A stretch of DNA of 64,000 nucleotides from Rhodospirillales bacterium (lineage in GTDB: Bacteria; Pseudomonadota; Alphaproteobacteria; Micavibrionales; Micavibrionaceae), in assembly GCA_023898785.1 (NCBI GenBank), contig CP060239.1:1417921-1481920 (forward strand). Direction: 5' to 3'. Position 1 is the first letter of the stretch, and each line of letters starts with the position of its first letter. The notes under the pieces were generated by a model that saw only the letters and a program-made list of their open reading frames with translations, was not told the origin of the DNA and searched no databases. Positions 41,491 through 48,529 of the stretch are shown here, piece by piece. Made by a program: the position numbers and the translations under genes.

Positions 41491-43032
41491 CTAATTTTTC
41501 CATCTTAAAACCGGATTGCGGGCAGCCTTAACTTCGTCGAGGCGGCGGCGCGGTGTGGAATGCGGGAAACTATGGAAGTGGTCTTCGGCATCACTGCGTT
41601 GCTCCGCCTCGCCAGCGATATCCTTCATCGCGGTTATAAAGCGGTCGAGGCTGTCCTTGCTTTCCGTATCGGTCGGTTCAATCAGCATCGTGCCGGGGAC
41701 GACGAGCGGGAAATACACGGTCATCGGGTGGAAACCTTTTTCGATCAGCGCCTTGGCGATATCGAGGGTCTGGACGCCACATTCTTTTTGCTTTTTATCG
41801 GTCAGGAGCGCTTCGTGCATGCATGGGCCTTGGGCAGAAAAGGGCGCATGGTAGTCGCCTTCGAGGCTGCGCAGGATATAATTGGCATTCAATACCGCGT
41901 CTTCGGAGACCTGTTTTAGCCCGTCGGCGCCGTGGGAAAGCATATAGGCCAGCGCGCGGACATGCATGCCGAACTGGCCATGGAAGCCTTTGAGTCGGCC
42001 ACAGTTTGTCAGGCGGTCGATTTCGGTTTCCAATCGATAGGTTTCACCCTCTTTCAACACAGTGGGTACGGGCATGTAAGCGCCAAGTTCTTCGGTGCAG
42101 CAGATCGGGCCGGAGCCGGGTCCGCCGCCGCCATGGGGCGTTGAAAAGGTTTTGTGCAAATTGATGTGCATGACATCGACACCGAAATCGCCGGGGCGGA
42201 TTTTACCGACCAGCGCATTAAAGTTTGCGCCGTCCATATAGAAGTACCCGCCGGCCTTATGCAGAAGATTGGCAATTTCGAGAATATCTTTTTCGAACAG
42301 GCCGCAAGTGTTGGGATTGGTGACCATCATCCCGGCAATATCACCGCCAGCCGGATCGGTTTTATAGAGCGCTTTTTTAAAGGCTTCTACGGTAAGCATC
42401 CCGGTGTCTTTGGTTGGGATGTTGCGGACCTCATAGCCGCAGGTGGTGGCGGTGGCCGGATTGGTGCCGTGGGCGGAATCGGGGGTCAGTACAATCTTGC
42501 GCTTTTTCCCGTCGCCTTTTTGTTCGTGGGCGCGGCGGATGGTCATCATCCCGGCCAGCTCGCCATGCGCTCCAGCGGCGGGCGACAGGCACACGCCGGA
42601 CAGATTGGTGAGCTCGGCCAGCCATTGTTGAAGTTCATACATCAGGGCGAGCGCGCCTTGGGTGGTGGATTCGGGCTGCAGCGGATGCAAATGCGCAAAA
42701 CCGGGCAGGCGCGCGAGTTTTTCATTCAGGCGCGGGTTGTGTTTCATCGTGCAGGAGCCGAGCGGGAAGAAGCCGTGATCGATGGAATAGTTCCATGTGC
42801 TCATGCGGACAAAGTGACGCAGGGCCTGAGGTTCGCTGACCTGTGGCAGGCCGATATTCTCGCGCGCCTGTTGGCCGGTGCGTAATGGCATGCCCGCGGG
42901 GGCTGGCAAATCCACGCCGGGGTGATCGGAACGTTCCTTTTCCCAGAGCAGGTTTTCTTCGTAATGCAGGCCGCGGTTATCGTCGTTCATTTTTGTGTCC
43001 ATAGTTTCTACAATTTTGTTTTCCGCGCTCAT
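41491..43032 (-). CDS. gcvPB: glycine dehydrogenase (aminomethyl-transferring) subunit 2
   Basis: Typical GcvPB, including ...[18 protein letters not shown]... (PLP-lysine region). Confidence 0.93.
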
Positions 43033-44309
43033 GCTAATGCCTCTTTCATAGCCGTGGTCAGGGCAGCAATGTCTTCATCCGTGGTCATTTCGGTGGCGGC
43101 GATGAGGAGCTGATTTTCATCGAGATCGTACCCAGCAATGATGCCCTGCCCGGCAAGAGCTTTGACGATGCCTTTTGAGGCCCGCGGCAATTCCAGTGTG
43201 AATTCGTTGAAGAAGTTCTCGGTGAGGAGCTTCACACCAGGGATTTGAGTCAGCGCGTCGGCGGTACGGCAGGCCGCTTCGTGGTTGAGGCGCGCAAGAC
43301 GTTTAAAGCCATCTTCACCCAGCAGGCTCATATGCACGGTAAAGGCGAGCGCGCACAGGCCCTGGTTGGTGCAGATGTTAGAGGTGGCCTTGTCGCGGCG
43401 GATATGCTGCTCGCGGGTGGAAAGCGTGAGGACAAAGCCGCGCTTTCCATCGGCATCTTCGGTCATGCCGCACAGGCGTCCGGGCATCTGGCGCAAGTAT
43501 TTTTCCTTACAGGCGAAAAACCCAAGATATGGCCCGCCATAGCTGAGCGGAATACCGATGGATTGGGCTTCGCCGCAAACGATGTCGGCTTCGGCGGGAG
43601 CAGGCAGCAGGCCAAGGGAGACGATTTCTGTGACGACGACGATCAGCAGAGCACCGGTTTCATCGCAGGATTTGCGCAGGGCATCATATTTATGCGGCGC
43701 GCCGTAGAAATCGGGTGACTGAATAATGACGCAGGCAGTCTGCTCATCGGGCGCGCCGTCGGTGATTTTAACATCGCCATCGAGATTCCACATGTAGGAT
43801 TTGAGCACACCGCGATAATCAGGATGCAGAGCGTTTCCAATAACGATCTTTTTGCGCTTGGTCACGCGCAAGGCCATAAGTGCGGCTTCGGTAGTGGCGG
43901 TCGCACCGTCATACATGCTGGCGTTGGCGACGTCCTGGCCGGTAAGCTGGGCGATGAAGGTCTGGAATTCGAAAATCGCCTGCAATGTGCCTTGGGCGAT
44001 TTCGGGTTGGTAGGGCGTGTAGGCGGTGAGGAATTCGCTGCGCTGGATGATGTAATCAACGCTAGCCGGAATGTGGTGGTAATACGCCCCGGCGCCGAGG
44101 AAAAACGGCCCGGCGCTGGCGGCGTGATTTTGGTTTGCATAGGCGTTTAAATGACGCTCAACGTCAAGCTCGCCTTGATGATCAGGCAGGTTGAATTTGT
44201 GGCCCATCTCAGTAGCCGGAACGTCAACATAAAGATCATCAATACTGCCCACGCCGATGGTTTTAAGCATCGCCGCGCGCGCATTTTGGGTCTGGGGGAG
44301 GTAACGCAT
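43029..44309 (-). CDS. gcvPA: glycine dehydrogenase (aminomethyl-transferring) subunit 1
   Basis: MRYLPQT... is the typical GcvPA N-terminus, with a 4-nt overlap with gcvPB. The track ORF starts 45 nt further upstream, inside the repeat element. Confidence 0.92.
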
Positions 44310-44324
44310 GTTTTCTTTCTCTCT

Positions 44325-44399
44325 GTCATTGCGAGGAGCGCAGTGACGAAGCAATCTATAAATCGGAAAACTGGATTGCTTCGCTGCGCTCGCAATGAC
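44325..44399. repeat. palindromic repeat element (imperfect ~26-32-nt arms GTCATTGCGAG...GAAGCAATC / GATTGCTTCGCTGCGCTCGCAATGAC)
   Basis: Inverted repeat read directly in the gcvH-gcvPA spacer. A second related copy lies at 47592-47673. Confidence 0.8.
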
Positions 44400-44408
44400 G
44401 TCTTCATT

Positions 44409-44786
44409 TTAATCCAAAGTCTTCAAATAATCCTTATACGTGGCCTCATCCATCAGGTCGCCCAGCTGCGCCGGATCGGTGATTTTGATTTTGGCGATCC
44501 AGCCGCCGTCGGCCAGCGGCTTGGCGATCAGTTCTAGATCATCTGGCATATTGTCGTTGGCCTCAACGACTTCGCCATCGATGGGGGAATACACTTCGGC
44601 AGCGGTTTTGACCGATTCGACGACGGCGAATTCATCACCCTTGCTCACCTGTTTGCCTATTTCAGGCAATTCGACAAAGACCAGATCGCCCAGCGCTTCG
44701 CGCGCATATTCTGTGATACCCACCCATGCGAGATCACCATCAACATATATCGCTTCGTGATCGGTGGTAAATTTTAACTCAGCCAT
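44409..44786 (-). CDS. gcvH: glycine cleavage system protein H
   Basis: ...VESVKTAAEVYSPIDGEV... is the lipoyl-lysine motif. Confidence 0.95.
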   Translation of the reverse strand: MAELKFTTDHEAIYVDGDLAWVGITEYAREALGDLVFVELPEIGKQVSKGDEFAVVESVKTAAEVYSPIDGEVVEANDNMPDDLELIAKPLADGGWIAKIKITDPAQLGDLMDEATYKDYLKTLD

Positions 44787-46152
44787 TGCTTGCCTCGTCC
44801 TTATATTTTGGTTGTGATTTATCTATAAAGTCGTGGACTTTTTCCAGACGCGAGTCAATGTAGCCCGGTACTTTATCCATATTAGAGACGACAACTATGG
44901 CATAGAGACTGAAAAATATCAGCACAAAGAGCGTTGCTTTTCTTTTGCGACTCAACGGCTTTTTAAGAACGCGTTCGATGGTTTGCGTCAAAAAGTGGCC
45001 GCCATCCATATAGGGAAGCGGCAAAAGGTTTACCAAAGCAATTATGACGCAGGTCAATGCAAAGAGGTGCATGTATTTGTAAAATACATTGAGGGCGCGT
45101 GTATCTTCGTGCATCACTTCACTGGAATCTTTGAGCTTGTAAGGATCGATAGGCAATAATTGAAACGGTGTTCCTGCAACATTCTTGATCATTGTCGCGC
45201 TTTTGCGCAGTGCTTCTATGGCATATTCAAAGGCCGGGCGATCAAGATAGATATTGCCGCGCGTTTGGCCAAAAAACACGCGTTCATAGTCGTCATGATC
45301 GGGGTTATCGAGATTGACGTTCTGCGCGGTAGAGAGTATTACGCGGGCCGGTTTTTCTTTTCCATCAGGGCCTTCAAAGCCGACGATTATTTCCTTGCCC
45401 ATGTTTTTGAGCAGTAACCTGCGCGCTTTGTCTTCATCGTCTTCGGTGTTTTGCCCTTTGACGCTCATCACCGCACTGAGCTTAAGGGGAGAATGTTGCC
45501 AGGTGACACCGAAGCGGGCATTTTTGCGCTCAATGCCATCTTCGTCTTTATATTCCGTCCAGCCCGGCGTGAAAGGTATATCAAAAATTTTATCGCCGCG
45601 CTGGATCGTATAGATGCTTTGAACCGCGCCTTTGGAATAGGCAACGCGCCAGATGTCCTGAAAATTTGCGACGGGTTTCCCATCAACGGCGAGGAAACGA
45701 TCGCCGACCTGCATGCCGGCTTTATCAGCAGCCAGCCCCGGTTCAATACCGACCAAAACCGGCGGCGTTGAGGGTTGACCGACCAATATATAGAAAGCGA
45801 AAAACAGGAATGGCAGGATTGCAAGATTTGCCAAGGGGCCGGCGAGGATGGTTACGGTGCGTTGCCAAAAAGGCCGAGCGGCGAAAGAACCGCCCTCGGA
45901 CAGGCCCTCCAACCCTTGAAGATGCACATGAGCGCCGAGCGGCCAACGGCGAAACGACCAGCGTGTACCGTGGTGATCACCCCAATGTCTGAGGGTACGA
46001 CCGCGGCCAATGACAACGGAATCGACAGGCATTTTGAACAGGCGCGCGGCCCAGTAATGACCCAGTTCATGTAAGATCAATGCGATAAAAATCAGCAGCA
46101 AAAAAACCGGCGGGCCGATCAGATATTCGATTTTAAACCAGTCTTCTTCCAT
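44779..46152 (-). CDS. M50-family site-2 protease (RseP-like) with PDZ region
   Basis: HELGHYWAA (HExxH in the first TM), a PDZ-like segment (...GLAADKAGMQVGDRFLAVDG...), and a C-terminal NLLPLPYMDGGH motif. Overlaps the gcvH start by 8 nt. Confidence 0.8.
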   Translation of the reverse strand: MEEDWFKIEYLIGPPVFLLLIFIALILHELGHYWAARLFKMPVDSVVIGRGRTLRHWGDHHGTRWSFRRWPLGAHVHLQGLEGLSEGGSFAARPFWQRTVTILAGPLANLAILPFLFFAFYILVGQPSTPPVLVGIEPGLAADKAGMQVGDRFLAVDGKPVANFQDIWRVAYSKGAVQSIYTIQRGDKIFDIPFTPGWTEYKDEDGIERKNARFGVTWQHSPLKLSAVMSVKGQNTEDDEDKARRLLLKNMGKEIIVGFEGPDGKEKPARVILSTAQNVNLDNPDHDDYERVFFGQTRGNIYLDRPAFEYAIEALRKSATMIKNVAGTPFQLLPIDPYKLKDSSEVMHEDTRALNVFYKYMHLFALTCVIIALVNLLPLPYMDGGHFLTQTIERVLKKPLSRKRKATLFVLIFFSLYAIVVVSNMDKVPGYIDSRLEKVHDFIDKSQPKYKDEASNG

Positions 46153-46185
46153 TTTATTGTGTTTACTTTCCTGATGCTGGGCCCT

Positions 46186-47286
46186 TTAGGCTGCAGCCTT
46201 TTTCATTGATTTGGTTTTGGCCGGAACGAAGGGCAGTTTGGCCACGACAGCCGCAATATTTCGCCCACGTACATTGATGAATATTTTTTGACCAACATTG
46301 GCCAAGTCACTGTTTATATACCCCATTCCGATTGATTCTTTGAGTGTGGGGGAATGACCGCCGGAAGTTAGAACACCGATAACTTCATCGGCTTCATCCC
46401 GGATTTCAGCCCCTTCACGGGCAACGCCTTTATCGGTGAGTTTGATCCCGACGAGCTTGCGGGCAGTGCCCTGAGCCAATTCTTTTTGGATGCGATCATA
46501 GCCAAAATAGCCGCTGGCGTTTTTGCCTATCACCCAACTCAATCCTGCCTCAACAGGCGAGGTTTCGGCGGTTATTTCATGACCATAAAGCGCATAGCCC
46601 ATTTCCATACGCAGCGAATCGCGCGCGGCTAGGCCGATGGGTTTGACCGCATCGTGGGCGAGGAATTTTTCTGCCAGCGCTGCGGCGTCCGCGTTCGGCA
46701 CGGCTATCTCAAAACCATCTTCGCCCGTGTAACCGAGACGGCTAATAAACATCTTATGATCGTCTTTAGCCCATAGCCCCATATAGGGTAAATCTGACAG
46801 ATCCGTGCCCAGAATCTTGCAGATAACGCTTTCCGATTCGGGGCCTTGCAGGGCCAAAAGAGCCCAGTCATCGAAGTGGGTAAATTCGAGATTCGGGGTT
46901 AAATGCTGTTTCATCCAGGCGATGTCTTTGTCTTTGCATCCGGCATTGATGACAAAATGGAAAGCATTCTCGCCGGTTTTTGTGATCATCAGATCGTCGA
47001 TAATGCCGCCCTCCTCGTTTAGCAGCACGGTGTATTTGGTACGCATATTCCCAAGCTTTTCAAAAGATGAGGGGGTTAGTTTTTGGACAAACTCCAGTGC
47101 GTCTGCTCCTTGCACCATTGCCTGGCCCATGTGGGAAACGTCGAACAAACCGCAGGATTCACGCACCCACTCATGCTCTTTGATTACGCCTTCGCCGTAA
47201 TAAAGCGGCATATCATAACCTGCAAACTCCCCCATTTTAGCGCCCAGCTTCGTATGCAAATCATGTAAGGCGGTGTGTTTGAGCAT
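46186..47286 (-). CDS. gcvT: glycine cleavage system aminomethyltransferase T
   Basis: MLKHTALHDLH... with SD AGGAGA 6 nt upstream of the ATG at 47286. Typical GcvT throughout. Confidence 0.93.
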   Translation of the reverse strand: MLKHTALHDLHTKLGAKMGEFAGYDMPLYYGEGVIKEHEWVRESCGLFDVSHMGQAMVQGADALEFVQKLTPSSFEKLGNMRTKYTVLLNEEGGIIDDLMITKTGENAFHFVINAGCKDKDIAWMKQHLTPNLEFTHFDDWALLALQGPESESVICKILGTDLSDLPYMGLWAKDDHKMFISRLGYTGEDGFEIAVPNADAAALAEKFLAHDAVKPIGLAARDSLRMEMGYALYGHEITAETSPVEAGLSWVIGKNASGYFGYDRIQKELAQGTARKLVGIKLTDKGVAREGAEIRDEADEVIGVLTSGGHSPTLKESIGMGYINSDLANVGQKIFINVRGRNIAAVVAKLPFVPAKTKSMKKAAA

Positions 47287-47363
47287 GAGCGTTCTCCTGT
47301 TTATCTGTTCAGTACCAAACATTAATGTGATCGGCAGAATTGTAAAGTCATGCTATTTGGTTA

Positions 47364-48125
47364 TTAAAATGGACAAGTATCGGTGAAGGTGGTGAGCGTG
47401 CCGTCTTTGGGGTGGTGAAGCGTGATGCTTTCAGCATGGAGTTGGAGGCGGTCTGCGGCATTGAGTGCGCGTTCATGAGCATAAAAGCGATCACCCAGAA
47501 TGGGATGGCCCAGCGCCGCCATATGCACGCGGAGTTGGTGAGAACGGCCGGTGAGGGGCTTGAGTTCAACGCGGGATATTTTGAATATTTCGTCATTGCG
47601 AGAAGGGTCATCAGACCCGACGCGGCCATCCATACCGGGACATTCTGGATTGCTTCGCTGCGCTCGTAATAACGGAGAGGCGCTATGCTCGATTATCCGC
47701 CAGTCGGTTTGAGAAAGGCGCCCATGTTCGTGACAGACCATCTGTAGCGGGCGGTTTTCCCAATTGCAGCGCAGGGGAAGATCGACGCAGCCTTCGCGCT
47801 CCTCCGGCACGCCCCAAACGCGGGCGATATAGGTTTTTTGCACTTTTCGGCGTTCGAACTGTTTGCCGAGATTGGCCTGAGCAGCCTTATTCATCGCCAT
47901 AACGAATATGCCGGAAGTATCCATATCGAGGCGGTGGACCAGCAGGCTTCCGGGGAATTGTTCTTTGGCGCGTGTTTCAAGGCAATCGGCATGTTCCGGC
48001 GCTTTGCCCGGAACGCTGAGCAGCCCGGCGGGTTTAGAGAGCACCAGCACGTCTCCATCTTGATGGAGAATATTGAGCGCCTCTTGCGAGGGCGCGTAAA
48101 TGAAAGAGCTAGCTCGCAAAGACAA
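47364..48125 (-). CDS. RluA-family pseudouridine synthase carrying an in-frame repeat-derived insertion
   Basis: ...VLSKPAGLLSVPG...LVHRLDMDTSG...PLTGRSHQLRVHMAALGHPILGD... are RluA-family motifs. Only TTG starts are available (48125 or 48119). Confidence 0.85.
   Translation of the reverse strand: MSLRASSFIYAPSQEALNILHQDGDVLVLSKPAGLLSVPGKAPEHADCLETRAKEQFPGSLLVHRLDMDTSGIFVMAMNKAAQANLGKQFERRKVQKTYIARVWGVPEEREGCVDLPLRCNWENRPLQMVCHEHGRLSQTDWRIIEHSASPLLRAQRSNPECPGMDGRVGSDDPSRNDEIFKISRVELKPLTGRSHQLRVHMAALGHPILGDRFYAHERALNAADRLQLHAESITLHHPKDGTLTTFTDTCPF
47592..47673. repeat. second copy of the palindromic repeat element, embedded in frame in the RluA-like CDS
   Basis: GTCATTGCGAG... at 47592 and GGATTGCTTCGCTGCGCTCGTAATAAC at 47647-47673 match the arms of the 44325-44399 element. 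It translates as ...[11 protein letters not shown]...PSRNDE.... Confidence 0.7.
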
Positions 48126-48354
48126 CTTTCACGCCGCGCTTTTTGAAATAGCTTTGCATCATTTTCCGGCCTGCGCGGTTATTCTGACTTAAACGATCAG
48201 GCGCAAAGACCGCTTCCTTTTCACCAGCAGCGTTCATGGCAGCCTTGAGATTGGCTATATGCAGATCTATGTCCTCATTGTCGTTGGTCAGCGAGGTGTA
48301 AATGGCTTCTTTGGCCTGTTCGAGTGAAAGGGTTTCGACAAGGGGGGCGCTCAT
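48109..48354 (-). CDS. hypothetical small protein (81 aa), translationally coupled to the RluA-like gene
   Basis: SD AAGGA about 8 nt before the ATG. The 3' end overlaps the RluA-like TTG start. No family recognised. Confidence 0.45.
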   Translation of the reverse strand: MSAPLVETLSLEQAKEAIYTSLTNDNEDIDLHIANLKAAMNAAGEKEAVFAPDRLSQNNRAGRKMMQSYFKKRGVKVVFAS

Positions 48355-48403
48355 GCGTAATCATCCTTTATTTGTTCTTTCAAATGATTTATCAAACAGC
48401 GCT

Positions 48404-48529
48404 ATGAGCACGCAAGATAAAGATCTCGAAAAAGAAGATATTAAGCCGCTAACCGGAGTGCATATTGCGCCGAAGGGGCATGGAGCGGGATGCGCGTGCT
48501 GCATGCCGGAGGAAGAGAATGACCAATAA
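48404..48529 (+). CDS. possible small Cys-rich peptide (41 aa; alternative start at 48353 gives 58 aa)
   Basis: The ORF ends ...APKGHGAGCACCMPEEENDQ. AGGGGGG precedes the 48353 ATG. Below the usual size threshold and weakly supported. Confidence 0.2.
   Translation: MSTQDKDLEKEDIKPLTGVHIAPKGHGAGCACCMPEEENDQ

What the first reader, a model, noticed from the sequence alone, without database searches (positions are those of the whole stretch)
47592..47673. Palindromic repeat element apparently inserted in frame inside an RluA-family pseudouridine synthase gene
The arms of the intergenic palindrome at 44325-44399 recur within the CDS at 47364-48125: GTCATTGCGAG... and GGATTGCTTCGCTGCGCTCG.... The reading frame passes through them and yields ...[37 protein letters not shown].... 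This extra peptide lies between two conserved RluA blocks (...SQTDWRII... and ...SRVELKPLTGRSHQLRVH...), which are normally separated by only a few residues. That is the behaviour known for Rickettsia palindromic elements, which insert in frame into coding genes, but here it involves a different repeat family.
Basis: partly seen in the sequence, partly recalled or inferred. Interest (0 to 1): 0.6.

Follow-up and report, generated by a model that had tools for sequence, protein, structure and literature searches.

The report
In-frame REP repeat inside rluA
An 84-base palindromic repeat of a known, widespread family (CGTC-tagged REP) sits in frame in a surface loop of an intact RluA pseudouridine synthase gene, adding about 28 floppy residues; it is real, but it is a new example of a phenomenon described in 2013.

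Summary
Window 47591-47674 is a full two-armed copy (84 nt with its end tags) of a repeat with 159 units genome-wide and none in a shuffled genome. It is read in frame inside an intact RluA gene (47364-48119/48125, minus strand).

- **Lineage-specific:** 18 of 19 orthologues from related genomes, and 113 of 119 best database homologues, have a short loop here (most often 7 residues).
- **Position:** E. coli RluA (2I82) has a 2-residue turn here. The AlphaFold model keeps the RluA fold (TM 0.93) and extrudes the insert as a low-confidence loop at a beta-hairpin tip.
- **Not a pseudogene:** dN/dS is about 0.18 and all 45 invariant family residues are present.
- **Other genes:** at least 10 (xerC-like, priA, dxs, pdhB, pdhC, uvrA, recN, bioF-like, cusA-like, a deaminase) also carry in-frame copies. 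Nine of 11 intragenic dimers have a frame-preserving length, against 13 of 48 intergenic (p = 0.001).

The repeat is not a new family. It fits the CGTC-tagged REPs of Di Nocera et al. 2013, which include Rickettsia RPE-4 and RPE-6 and known intragenic copies. It also resembles the Ssn-related motifs of Chenal et al. 2025, and Ssn-like GIY-YIG genes here are bracketed by it.

The modestly new point is that this loop was hit independently in at least 5 RluA lineages.

The parts
47364..48125 (-). RluA-family pseudouridine synthase CDS (253 aa from TTG 48125; the database gene call starts at TTG 48119, 251 aa). It is intact and hosts the element.
   Evidence: ORF. Pfam PF00849 at 2e-29. E. coli RluA 2I82 at E 7e-67. 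AF2 mean pLDDT 91 and Foldseek TM 0.93 to 2I82. All 45 invariant family residues are present. dN/dS is 0.18-0.19.
47591..47674 (-). Complete CGTC-tagged REP dimer (84 nt, 28 codons), read in frame as [28 protein letters not shown].
   Evidence: Sequence. Aligned with orthologue CDSs. It matches the genome-wide unit architecture.
47645..47674 (-). First unit on the coding strand: CGTTATTACGAGCGCAGCGAAGCAATCCAG, the short 'A-type' unit. It has 2 mismatches in 27 to the copy at 44373-44399.
47633..47644 (-). 12-nt spacer between the two inverted units.
47591..47632 (-). Second unit on the coding strand: TGGATGGCCGCGTCGGGTCTGATGACCCTTCTCGCAATGACG, the long 'B-type' unit with an inner GGGTC/GACCC stem.
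   Evidence: Compare the B-type units listed.
44324..44400 (.). Intergenic dimer of the same family, in the gcvH-gcvPA spacer.
   Evidence: It folds at -38.8 to -41.5 kcal/mol, z about -8.

Best explanation
An 84-nt head-to-head dimer of a CGTC-tagged REP (also describable as an Ssn-related hairpin motif) entered the rluA gene of this lineage. It landed at the codons for the tip of a beta-hairpin.

The copy survived for three reasons:
- Its length including both tag bases is a multiple of three.
- The frame in use (SLRAxRSNP...PRND) has no stop codon.
- The extra 28 residues hang off the protein surface as a disordered loop, away from the conserved core.

So the gene still encodes a folded RluA that is probably active. 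The insert is best read as a tolerated selfish passenger, not a functional module. It has since decayed: its termini carry mismatches and its mRNA hairpin is much weaker than that of intergenic copies.

Shown here: the identity of the element, its absence from orthologues, the integrity of the gene, the loop position in a model, and the genome-wide pattern of in-frame copies.

Inferred: how the element moves. The only genes bracketed by its arms are small single-domain GIY-YIG nucleases resembling the published Ssn ssDNA nucleases, so a hairpin or ssDNA-based process involving them is the leading candidate. Enzyme activity of this RluA is also inferred.
For: **The element**
- 159 units genome-wide against 0 in a shuffled genome, arranged as 59 dimers and 41 singles.
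- The base before GTCATTGCGAG is C in 116 and T in 39 of 159 units, which is the CGTC/TGTC tag; nothing is conserved further out.

**Absence from orthologues**
- In 18 of 19 orthologues from related genomes, the match splits at query residues about 148 and 184, a few codons apart.
- 113 of 119 best homologues have loops of 7-20 residues, most often 7.

**Position in the protein**
- E. coli RluA 2I82 aligns at 4-145 and 148-213, on either side of the insert.
- In the AF2 model, strands 137-149 and 178-188 flank residues 150-177, which have pLDDT about 53 while the rest exceeds 95.
- Foldseek's best hit is 2I82, with TM 0.93.

**Gene integrity**
- All 45 invariant residues are present, including the HRLD catalytic motif.
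- dN/dS is 0.18-0.19, similar to 0.16 between two relatives.
- The same allele is on record in other assemblies (P0001: 3 member sequences on 2 contigs).

**Genome-wide pattern**
- In-frame copies lie in at least 10 other genes with Pfam domains on both sides.
- Nine of 11 intragenic dimers have length = 1 mod 3 without tags, against 13 of 48 intergenic dimers (Fisher p = 0.0013).
- The xerC-like and bioF-like inserts are absent from most relatives but shared with REP-rich ones, for example G005 at 87% identity.

**Decay**
- The mRNA-strand fold is -27.7 kcal/mol (z -1.1), against -38.8 (z -8.4) for the intergenic copy.

**Mobilisation lead**
- Two GIY-YIG genes are bracketed by inverted units of this repeat, and a third by a sister repeat.
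- Across 41 genomes, repeat presence tracks GIY-YIG presence: 18 have both, 3 only the repeat, 3 only the gene, 17 neither (Fisher p = 7e-6).
- Literature: PMC3733652 and PMC11893778.
Against: - There is no transcript or protein evidence that the insert is retained.
- Enzyme activity was not tested.
- The model's coordinates could not be read, so the loop's distance from the active site and the RNA surface was not measured.
- The filled alleles exceed their empty sisters by 9-12 nt more than the element itself. The insertion was therefore not a clean cut-and-paste, or the loop changed afterwards.
- No target-site duplication was seen.
- The GIY-YIG link is a correlation without phylogenetic correction. 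Membership of those genes in cd10448 (Ssn) could not be tested with the libraries at hand: NCBIfam gave only a weak sub-threshold hit and the PDB only UPF0213 at E 6e-4.
Confidence: 0.88

Rival explanations
1. The extra segment is an ancestral loop of this RluA clade that happens to resemble the repeat, and other lineages lost it.
For: The nearest relative G019 also has extra sequence at this loop, and its left flank resembles that of the target.
Against: The DNA is a full two-unit copy of a 159-unit repeat family. 113 of 119 homologues have short loops. The six insert-bearing proteins are scattered on the tree, and four are strongly supported sisters (97-99 SH-aLRT) of insert-free proteins. 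The G019 extra sequence is itself a single unit of the same repeat.
Confidence: 0.02
2. The gene is a decaying pseudogene that the repeat has disabled, and the open frame is a coincidence.
For: Roughly half of all reading frames through such elements are open (153 of 354), so an open frame alone is weak evidence.
Against: - The full-length ORF has all 45 invariant residues.
- dN/dS is 0.18-0.19, like that of insert-free relatives.
- The model has a confident RluA fold.
- The frame-preserving length bias across 11 genes (p = 0.0013) indicates selection for intact products.
- A comparable insert in the xerC-like gene is conserved in frame between species at 87% identity.
Confidence: 0.04
3. The insert has been co-opted. 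Either the added loop or the mRNA hairpin now serves a function, such as a new RNA or protein contact or translational control. That would explain why the same RluA loop carries such inserts in several lineages.
For: At least five independent occurrences at the same loop and none elsewhere in RluA. The SLRAxRSNP...PRND frame recurs in many host genes.
Against: - The peptide is predicted to be disordered.
- The insert sequences differ in spacer, second-unit type and length.
- Sister species do without it.
- The hairpin on the mRNA strand is decaying rather than conserved.
- The same peptide frame occurs in unrelated proteins, which argues against a function specific to RluA.
- A permissive-site filter explains the recurrence more simply.
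Confidence: 0.06
4. The recurrence at this loop reflects a real insertional preference of the repeat's mobilising machinery for the DNA at this position, not merely survival of tolerated hits.
For: All REP-derived inserts seen in 119 RluA homologues are at this one loop, and they require at least 5 independent events. In all four full dimers whose DNA was read (the target, P0006, P0008, P0029), the short A-type unit comes first on the coding strand.
Against: No shared motif is evident in the four empty sister sites, and no sequence is conserved outside the tag in 159 units. The loop is also the most length-variable part of the protein (7-20 residues without any repeat), as expected of a permissive site.
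Confidence: 0.15

Closest known systems
CGTC-tagged REPs, CGTC-1-like (Di Nocera, De Gregorio and Rocco 2013, BMC Genomics 14:522, PMC3733652)
   Same: - Stem-loop units of 28-41 nt with a CGTC/TGTC tag at one end and an AATCCA tail at the other.
- Mostly head-to-head dimers, about 100 loci per genome, patchy among relatives.
- No flanking tyrosine transposase.
- Intragenic dimers encode 20-30 residues, often in DNA repair genes (uvrA, recN and priA here).
- The family is reported in Micavibrio, Bradyrhizobium and sphingomonads, the same taxa that hold the exact 27-mer.
   Different: The stem sequence here (ATTGCGAG...GAAGCAAT) differs from the M. aeruginosavorus copy listed in that paper (the SIPAKAGIQ...DSRLRGN type). 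That other type is present in this genome only as a sister repeat. This rluA insert and the count of at least 11 host genes in a 2.2-Mb genome are not in the paper.
Ssn-related motifs (NTS/SRM) and Ssn GIY-YIG ssDNA nucleases (Chenal et al. 2025, Nat Commun 16:2388, PMC11893778)
   Same: The motif has the same shape: CGTCATT, then a hairpin, then AATCCAG. Compare NTS, CGTCATTCCCGCGMAVGCGGGAATCYRG. Small single-domain GIY-YIG genes are bracketed by inverted copies (repeat-gene-repeat), and gene and repeat co-occur across genomes.
   Different: The stem sequence differs. Nuclease activity and cd10448 membership of the local genes were not tested. That paper does not deal with in-frame copies in genes.
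Rickettsia palindromic elements (RPEs)
   Same: Palindromic repeats inserted in frame in housekeeping genes, adding surface peptides without destroying the protein. PMC3733652 assigns RPE-4 and RPE-6 to the CGTC REP superfamily.
   Different: The host is not a Rickettsia; the best synteny among named loci is to a Micavibrio MAG. The classic in-frame RPE-1 is a longer palindromic element (PMC3733652). No alignment to RPE consensus sequences was made here.
REPIN/RAYT systems (GTAG-tagged REPs)
   Same: Two inverted REP units with a short spacer that fold into a long hairpin, present in many copies together with singlets.
   Different: The tag is CGTC rather than GTAG. The genome's Y1 transposase genes are ordinary multi-copy IS200-like elements with their own hairpins and are not flanked by this repeat.
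Coxiella burnetii MITEs in coding genes (Wachter et al. 2018, PMC5896051)
   Same: Judging by its title and abstract, another report linking small palindromic elements to protein evolution outside Rickettsia.
   Different: Only the title and abstract line were seen here, so the relation of those elements to this repeat was not examined.

Membership tests
CGTC-tagged REP (PMC3733652) | Short palindromic stem-loop unit (20-40 bp) in high copy number | tested here: met
   159 units of 28-47 nt (plus one 58-nt outlier), most often 28 and 36 nt, against 0 in a shuffled genome.
CGTC-tagged REP (PMC3733652) | Unpaired CGTC (or TGTC) tag at one end | tested here: met
   The base before GTC is C in 116 and T in 39 of 159 units, with no conservation further out. 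The rluA copy has CGTC at 47591-47594; the far end is degraded to CGTT on the coding strand (47674-47671).
CGTC-tagged REP (PMC3733652) | Stem starting with A-T pairs, and a short CCA-like tail at the other end | tested here: met
   Units read GTC-ATTGC...GCAAT-CCA or -CTA.
CGTC-tagged REP (PMC3733652) | Mainly head-to-head dimers | tested here: met
   59 dimers (118 units) and 41 single units.
CGTC-tagged REP (PMC3733652) | No associated tyrosine transposase | tested here: met
   13 PF01797 matches. None is bracketed by the repeat apart from one chance neighbour, and they are identical multi-copy IS200-like genes.
Ssn-related motif / Ssn system (PMC11893778) | Hairpin repeat flanking a small single-domain GIY-YIG gene on both sides | tested here: met
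   G000 317256-317561 and 1100865-1101195 are bracketed by inverted units of this repeat; 1171420-1171710 is bracketed by a sister repeat.
Ssn-related motif / Ssn system (PMC11893778) | Gene and repeat co-occur across genomes | tested here: met
   41 genomes: both 18, repeat only 3, gene only 3, neither 17; Fisher p = 7e-6, not corrected for phylogeny.
Ssn-related motif / Ssn system (PMC11893778) | The GIY-YIG protein belongs to cd10448 and cuts the motif as ssDNA | not testable with these tools
   No CDD library is available. Pfam GIY-YIG is met. NCBIfam gave only a sub-threshold hit and the PDB only UPF0213 1ZG2 at E 6e-4.
Ssn-related motif / Ssn system (PMC11893778) | Match to the authors' degenerate SRM search motif | tested here: inconclusive
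   The ends CGTCATT and AATCCAG are shared with the NTS consensus quoted in the paper. The degenerate SRM string itself was not retrieved.
Rickettsia palindromic elements | In-frame insertion into conserved genes with the host protein kept | tested here: met
Rickettsia palindromic elements | Sequence homology to an RPE consensus (RPE-1 to RPE-8) | not tested
   No RPE sequences were fetched. The link to RPE-4/RPE-6 rests on PMC3733652.
Rickettsia palindromic elements | Resident in the genus Rickettsia | tested here: not met
   Genome of 2.2 Mb with 49.5% G+C. The best synteny among named loci is to Micavibrio sp. DHS20C02 at 65-71% nucleotide identity.
REPIN/RAYT | GTAG tag, and a single-copy RAYT gene flanked by the REPs | tested here: not met
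   The tag is CGTC, and no RAYT is flanked by the repeat.
Classical MITE | Terminal inverted repeats plus a target-site duplication, derived from an IS with a matching transposase | tested here: inconclusive
   The ends are inverted repeats, but no duplication is visible at the rluA site or in filled-versus-empty pairs. The only gene carried between such ends is a GIY-YIG nuclease.
RluA (dual-specificity psi746/psi32 synthase) | PseudoU_synth_2 domain with the HRLD catalytic Asp, and closest to E. coli RluA | tested here: met
   PF00849 at 2e-29. 2I82 at E 7e-67 with 47% identity and TM 0.93. H62-R63-L64-D65 are invariant. Substrate specificity was not tested.

The most novel reading that the evidence does not exclude
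The RluA beta-hairpin tip is a genuine insertional hot spot for CGTC REP/SRM dimers. It was hit independently at least five times, with the same unit order in the four full dimers whose DNA was read, because the still-unknown mobilising machinery (perhaps the Ssn-like GIY-YIG nuclease acting on ssDNA) prefers something in the DNA there. If so, filled and empty rluA alleles in sister species would be a natural data set for working out how CGTC REPs move, a question PMC3733652 left open with the remark that they 'apparently lack a dedicated transposase'.
Probability: 0.15. Interest if true: 0.6.

Novelty: new member of a known kind. Interest (0 to 1): 0.33.

Why it matters
This is a clean, well-controlled example of a selfish palindromic repeat living inside essential genes without killing them. 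The evidence includes a frame-length signature of selection, a structural explanation (a beta-hairpin tip) and natural filled and empty alleles.

It extends the known catalogue of intragenic CGTC REPs to rluA and to at least ten other genes of one small genome. It also ties that catalogue to the recently described Ssn nuclease-repeat pairs.

The recurrent use of one loop in several lineages could help separate target preference from tolerance. That bears on the open question of how these repeats spread. For annotation, such inserts explain odd low-complexity segments and spurious ORFs such as '...LLRCARND...'.

Tried and rejected
- **Rfam.** A scan of 44000-48500 at E up to 1 gave no match.
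- **Literature by sequence string.** A full-text search for GTCATTGCGAG returned only unrelated primer hits.
- **RAYT/REPIN idea.** The genome has 13 Y1_Tnp matches, but they are two multi-copy IS200-like families with their own hairpins. Only one lies near the repeat, and that is by chance. Rejected.
- **Target-site duplication or clean insertion boundaries.** Comparing four filled-versus-empty sister pairs showed no duplication and 9-12 extra nt beyond the element. Unresolved.
- **Conserved flank beyond the tag.** None was found in 159 units.
- **Promoter and terminator scan of the gene.** Nothing lies within the element.
- **Family assignment of the GIY-YIG proteins.** NCBIfam and PDB sequence searches gave only weak hits.
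- **First attempt to align proteins from genome-search loci.** It failed because I supplied the wrong coordinates. I replaced it with database homologues.

Full report
**1. What is in the sequence**

The minus-strand ORF 47364-48125 (253 aa from a TTG) reads straight through the region. It contains ...[64 protein letters not shown]... and matches Pfam PseudoU_synth_2 at 2e-29.

On the plus strand, GTCATTGCGAG begins at 47592. GGATTGCTTCGCTGCGCTCGTAATAAC occupies 47647-47673. The latter differs at 2 of 27 positions from the right arm of the intergenic palindrome at 44373-44399, and no shuffle of the window gave any match with up to 3 mismatches.

On the coding strand, 47674-47591 reads:

CGTTATTACGAGCGCAGCGAAGCAATCCAG - aatgtcccggta - TGGATGGCCGCGTCGGGTCTGATGACCCTTCTCGCAATGACG

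That is a short unit, a 12-nt spacer and a long inverted unit with its own inner stem, 84 nt in all.

**2. The repeat family in this genome**

The window lies in a single-contig genome of 2,235,479 bp with 49.5% G+C.

- A pattern for one unit (GTCATTGCGAG, 6-45 nt, GCAATCCA-like) finds 159 units, and none in a shuffled genome.
- They form 59 inverted dimers of 61-109 nt and 41 single units.
- The base just outside each unit is C in 116 and T in 39 of 159 cases. Nothing further out is conserved.
- The unit is therefore (C/T)GTC-ATTGC...GCAAT-CCA.
- Rfam has no family for it.

**3. The insert is lineage-specific**

The protein was searched in 40 related genomes. In nearly all orthologues the match breaks at about residue 148 and resumes at about residue 184, only a few codons later. 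An alignment of 20 orthologues shows a loop of 6-12 residues where the target has 39.

The one exception is G019. It carries a single 40-nt unit of the same repeat at the same loop, GTCATTGCGAGGAGGCCGTGGGGCCGACGCGGCAATCCAT.

Among the 119 best database homologues the loop is most often 7 residues long (68 proteins). Only six carry repeat-derived inserts.

**4. The gene is alive and the insert sits at a hairpin tip**

- E. coli RluA (2I82) aligns at E 7e-67. Residues 4-145 match query 10-150 and residues 148-213 match query 184-249, so the insert replaces a two-residue turn.
- An AlphaFold2 model built from 66 homologues has mean pLDDT 91. Strands 137-149 and 178-188 flank residues 150-177, which score about 53 while the rest is above 95.
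- Foldseek returns 2I82 first, with TM 0.93 normalised to the target.
- All 45 invariant columns of the family are kept, including H62-R63-L64-D65.
- Outside the loop, dN/dS against the two nearest relatives is 0.18 and 0.19. The figure between those two relatives is 0.16.
- The same allele is on record in other assemblies. A second contig carries it with a downstream frameshift.

I could not read the model's coordinates. That the loop is far from the active site is therefore an inference from its position at a hairpin tip and from its natural length variability.

**5. It is not an isolated case**

Of about 100 repeat loci, 21 lie in an open frame that extends at least 40 codons on both sides. 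Pfam confirms real genes with domains on both sides of the insert for ten of them:

- an xerC/xerD-like recombinase
- priA
- dxs (a single unit)
- pdhB and pdhC (in the lipoyl linkers)
- uvrA
- recN
- a bioF-like aminotransferase
- a cusA-like RND pump
- a deaminase-domain protein

Most use the same frame, giving SSLRAxRSNP...PRND.

Nine of the 11 intragenic dimers have a length of 1 mod 3, which becomes a multiple of three once the two tag bases are counted. Only 13 of 48 intergenic dimers do (Fisher p = 0.0013). This is a direct signature of selection for frame preservation. It also suggests that the inserted unit includes both tag bases.

The bioF-like and xerC-like inserts are absent from most relatives. 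They are shared, in frame, with the repeat-rich species G005, G001 and G003, with the xerC-like protein 87% identical in G005. Such inserts can therefore persist across speciation.

**6. What the repeat is, according to the literature**

The exact 27-mer GTCATTGCGAGCGNAGCGAAGCAATCC occurs in Bradyrhizobium, sphingomonads, Legionellales, Coxiellaceae, Rickettsiales, Bacteroidota, Fibrobacter, a Calothrix and a Micavibrio MAG.

Di Nocera et al. 2013 (PMC3733652) defined CGTC-tagged REPs with just these features:
- a CGTC or TGTC tag;
- A-T pairs at the base of the stem;
- a CCA tail;
- head-to-head dimers;
- predominance in alphaproteobacteria, including Micavibrio aeruginosavorus.

They also assigned R. 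conorii RPE-4 and RPE-6 to this superfamily. They listed intragenic copies encoding 20-30 residues, many in repair genes and some in pseudouridine synthase genes. [quoted passage not shown]

Chenal et al. 2025 (PMC11893778) later showed that hairpin repeats of the form CGTCATT...AATCYRG (NTS/SRM) flank genes for small GIY-YIG ssDNA nucleases (Ssn) across phyla.

**7. Tests of those links in this genome**

- The 13 Y1-transposase matches are two multi-copy IS200-like families with their own hairpins. They are not flanked by the repeat.
- Of four small GIY-YIG genes, two are bracketed by inverted units of this repeat. One of those two is a pseudogene sitting between fliQ- and fliR-like genes. 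A third is bracketed by a sister repeat, GTCATGCCCGC...GCGGGCATCCGGA.
- Across 41 genomes of the order, repeat counts range from 0 to 157 and track the presence of the GIY-YIG homologue: 18 have both, 3 only the repeat, 3 only the gene, 17 neither (p = 7e-6, uncorrected for phylogeny).
- All seven repeat-free species of the genus lack the gene.

This agrees with the published association. It does not show that the nuclease moves the repeat.

**8. The one result that goes beyond the literature I read**

On a tree built without the loop columns, the six insert-bearing RluA proteins are scattered. The label needs six changes, and strongly supported branches force at least five. Four of the six are sisters (97-99 SH-aLRT) of insert-free proteins.

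DNA fetched for three of them shows canonical or decayed CGTC REP dimers with different spacers and second-unit types. In every one, the short unit comes first on the coding strand. No repeat-derived insert occurs anywhere else in the 119 proteins.

Either this loop is the only place where RluA tolerates 25-35 extra residues, or the insertion process prefers it. The first is simpler, for three reasons: the loop already varies from 7 to 20 residues without any repeat, no common motif appears in the empty sister sites, and none appears outside the tag.

The filled alleles are 9-12 nt longer than element plus empty site, and no target duplication is seen. The boundaries therefore remain unexplained.

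**9. State of the rluA copy**

Relative to the consensus, the copy has several substitutions at its ends: CGTTATTACGAG for CGTCATTGCGAG, and GGATGGCC for GGATTGCC. Its mRNA-strand fold is -27.7 kcal/mol (z -1.1), against -38.8 kcal/mol (z -8.4) for the intergenic copy at 44324-44400. This fits an old insertion that is drifting, or one selected against a strong hairpin in the message.

**10. Verdict**

The correction is that the repeat belongs to a described superfamily that already includes some RPEs and known intragenic copies. This is a new member of a known kind, and interest is moderate to low. The recurrent use of one loop and the frame-length signature are useful additions.

Noticed in passing
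G000:C1:1100865-1101195 (outside the window): A small GIY-YIG gene with an internal stop is bracketed exactly by inverted units of the repeat: GTCATTGCGAGGGAAGCAATCCAG-ATG...TAG...CTGGATTGCTTCGCTCCGCTCGCAATGAC. It is wedged between the end of a fliQ-like gene and the start of a fliR-like gene. It looks like a whole repeat-nuclease-repeat unit inserted into an operon.
   Followed up: partly
G000:C1:1171420-1171710 (outside the window): Another small GIY-YIG gene (52% identical to the one at 317256-317543) is bracketed by a different hairpin repeat, GTCATGCCCGC..GCGGGCATCCGGA. This suggests matched nuclease-repeat pairs within one genome.
   Followed up: no
G000:C1:567006-567099 and 568899-568998 (outside the window): The lipoyl-domain linkers of pdhB (E1 beta) and pdhC (E2) each carry an in-frame dimer with the same spacer, giving AIQSKGQADEEGGLPC in both. 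The likely cause is duplication or gene conversion of the lipoyl-linker segment together with its repeat.
   Followed up: no
G000:C1:318655-320763 (outside the window): The dxs gene has a single in-frame unit (VIATPDLIRGKQSI) at the start of its C-terminal transketolase domain. A dimer lies just upstream of its likely start. An IS200-like copy and a repeat-flanked GIY-YIG gene lie next to it.
   Followed up: partly
G000:C1, for example 315040-315492, 803638-804090, 914713-915165, 1636447-1636920, 2104819-2105295: Two families of IS200-like Y1 transposase genes are present in identical multiple copies, plus three frameshifted copies. They have their own CCCACGGGTAAACCCGTGG hairpins, unrelated to the repeat.
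   Followed up: partly
window 48109-48125: The rluA start is more likely the TTG at 48119 than the one at 48125. That gives the 11-nt overlap with the upstream 76-81-aa gene that is conserved in four orthologous loci (L146-L148, L145), and it is where the database gene call starts.
   Followed up: partly
window 43029-44407: The intergenic dimer at 44324-44400 creates spurious ORFs and ORF extensions in mechanical ORF lists: [10 protein letters not shown]... ahead of the gcvPA start, and ...LLRCARND... on the other strand. Repeats of this kind may be a general source of junk 'hypothetical proteins'.
   Followed up: no
P0002 (another assembly of the same gene): A 99% identical copy of this rluA allele, insert included, carries a frameshift after ...ELKPLT. 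I could not tell whether this is an assembly error or a real variant.
   Followed up: no
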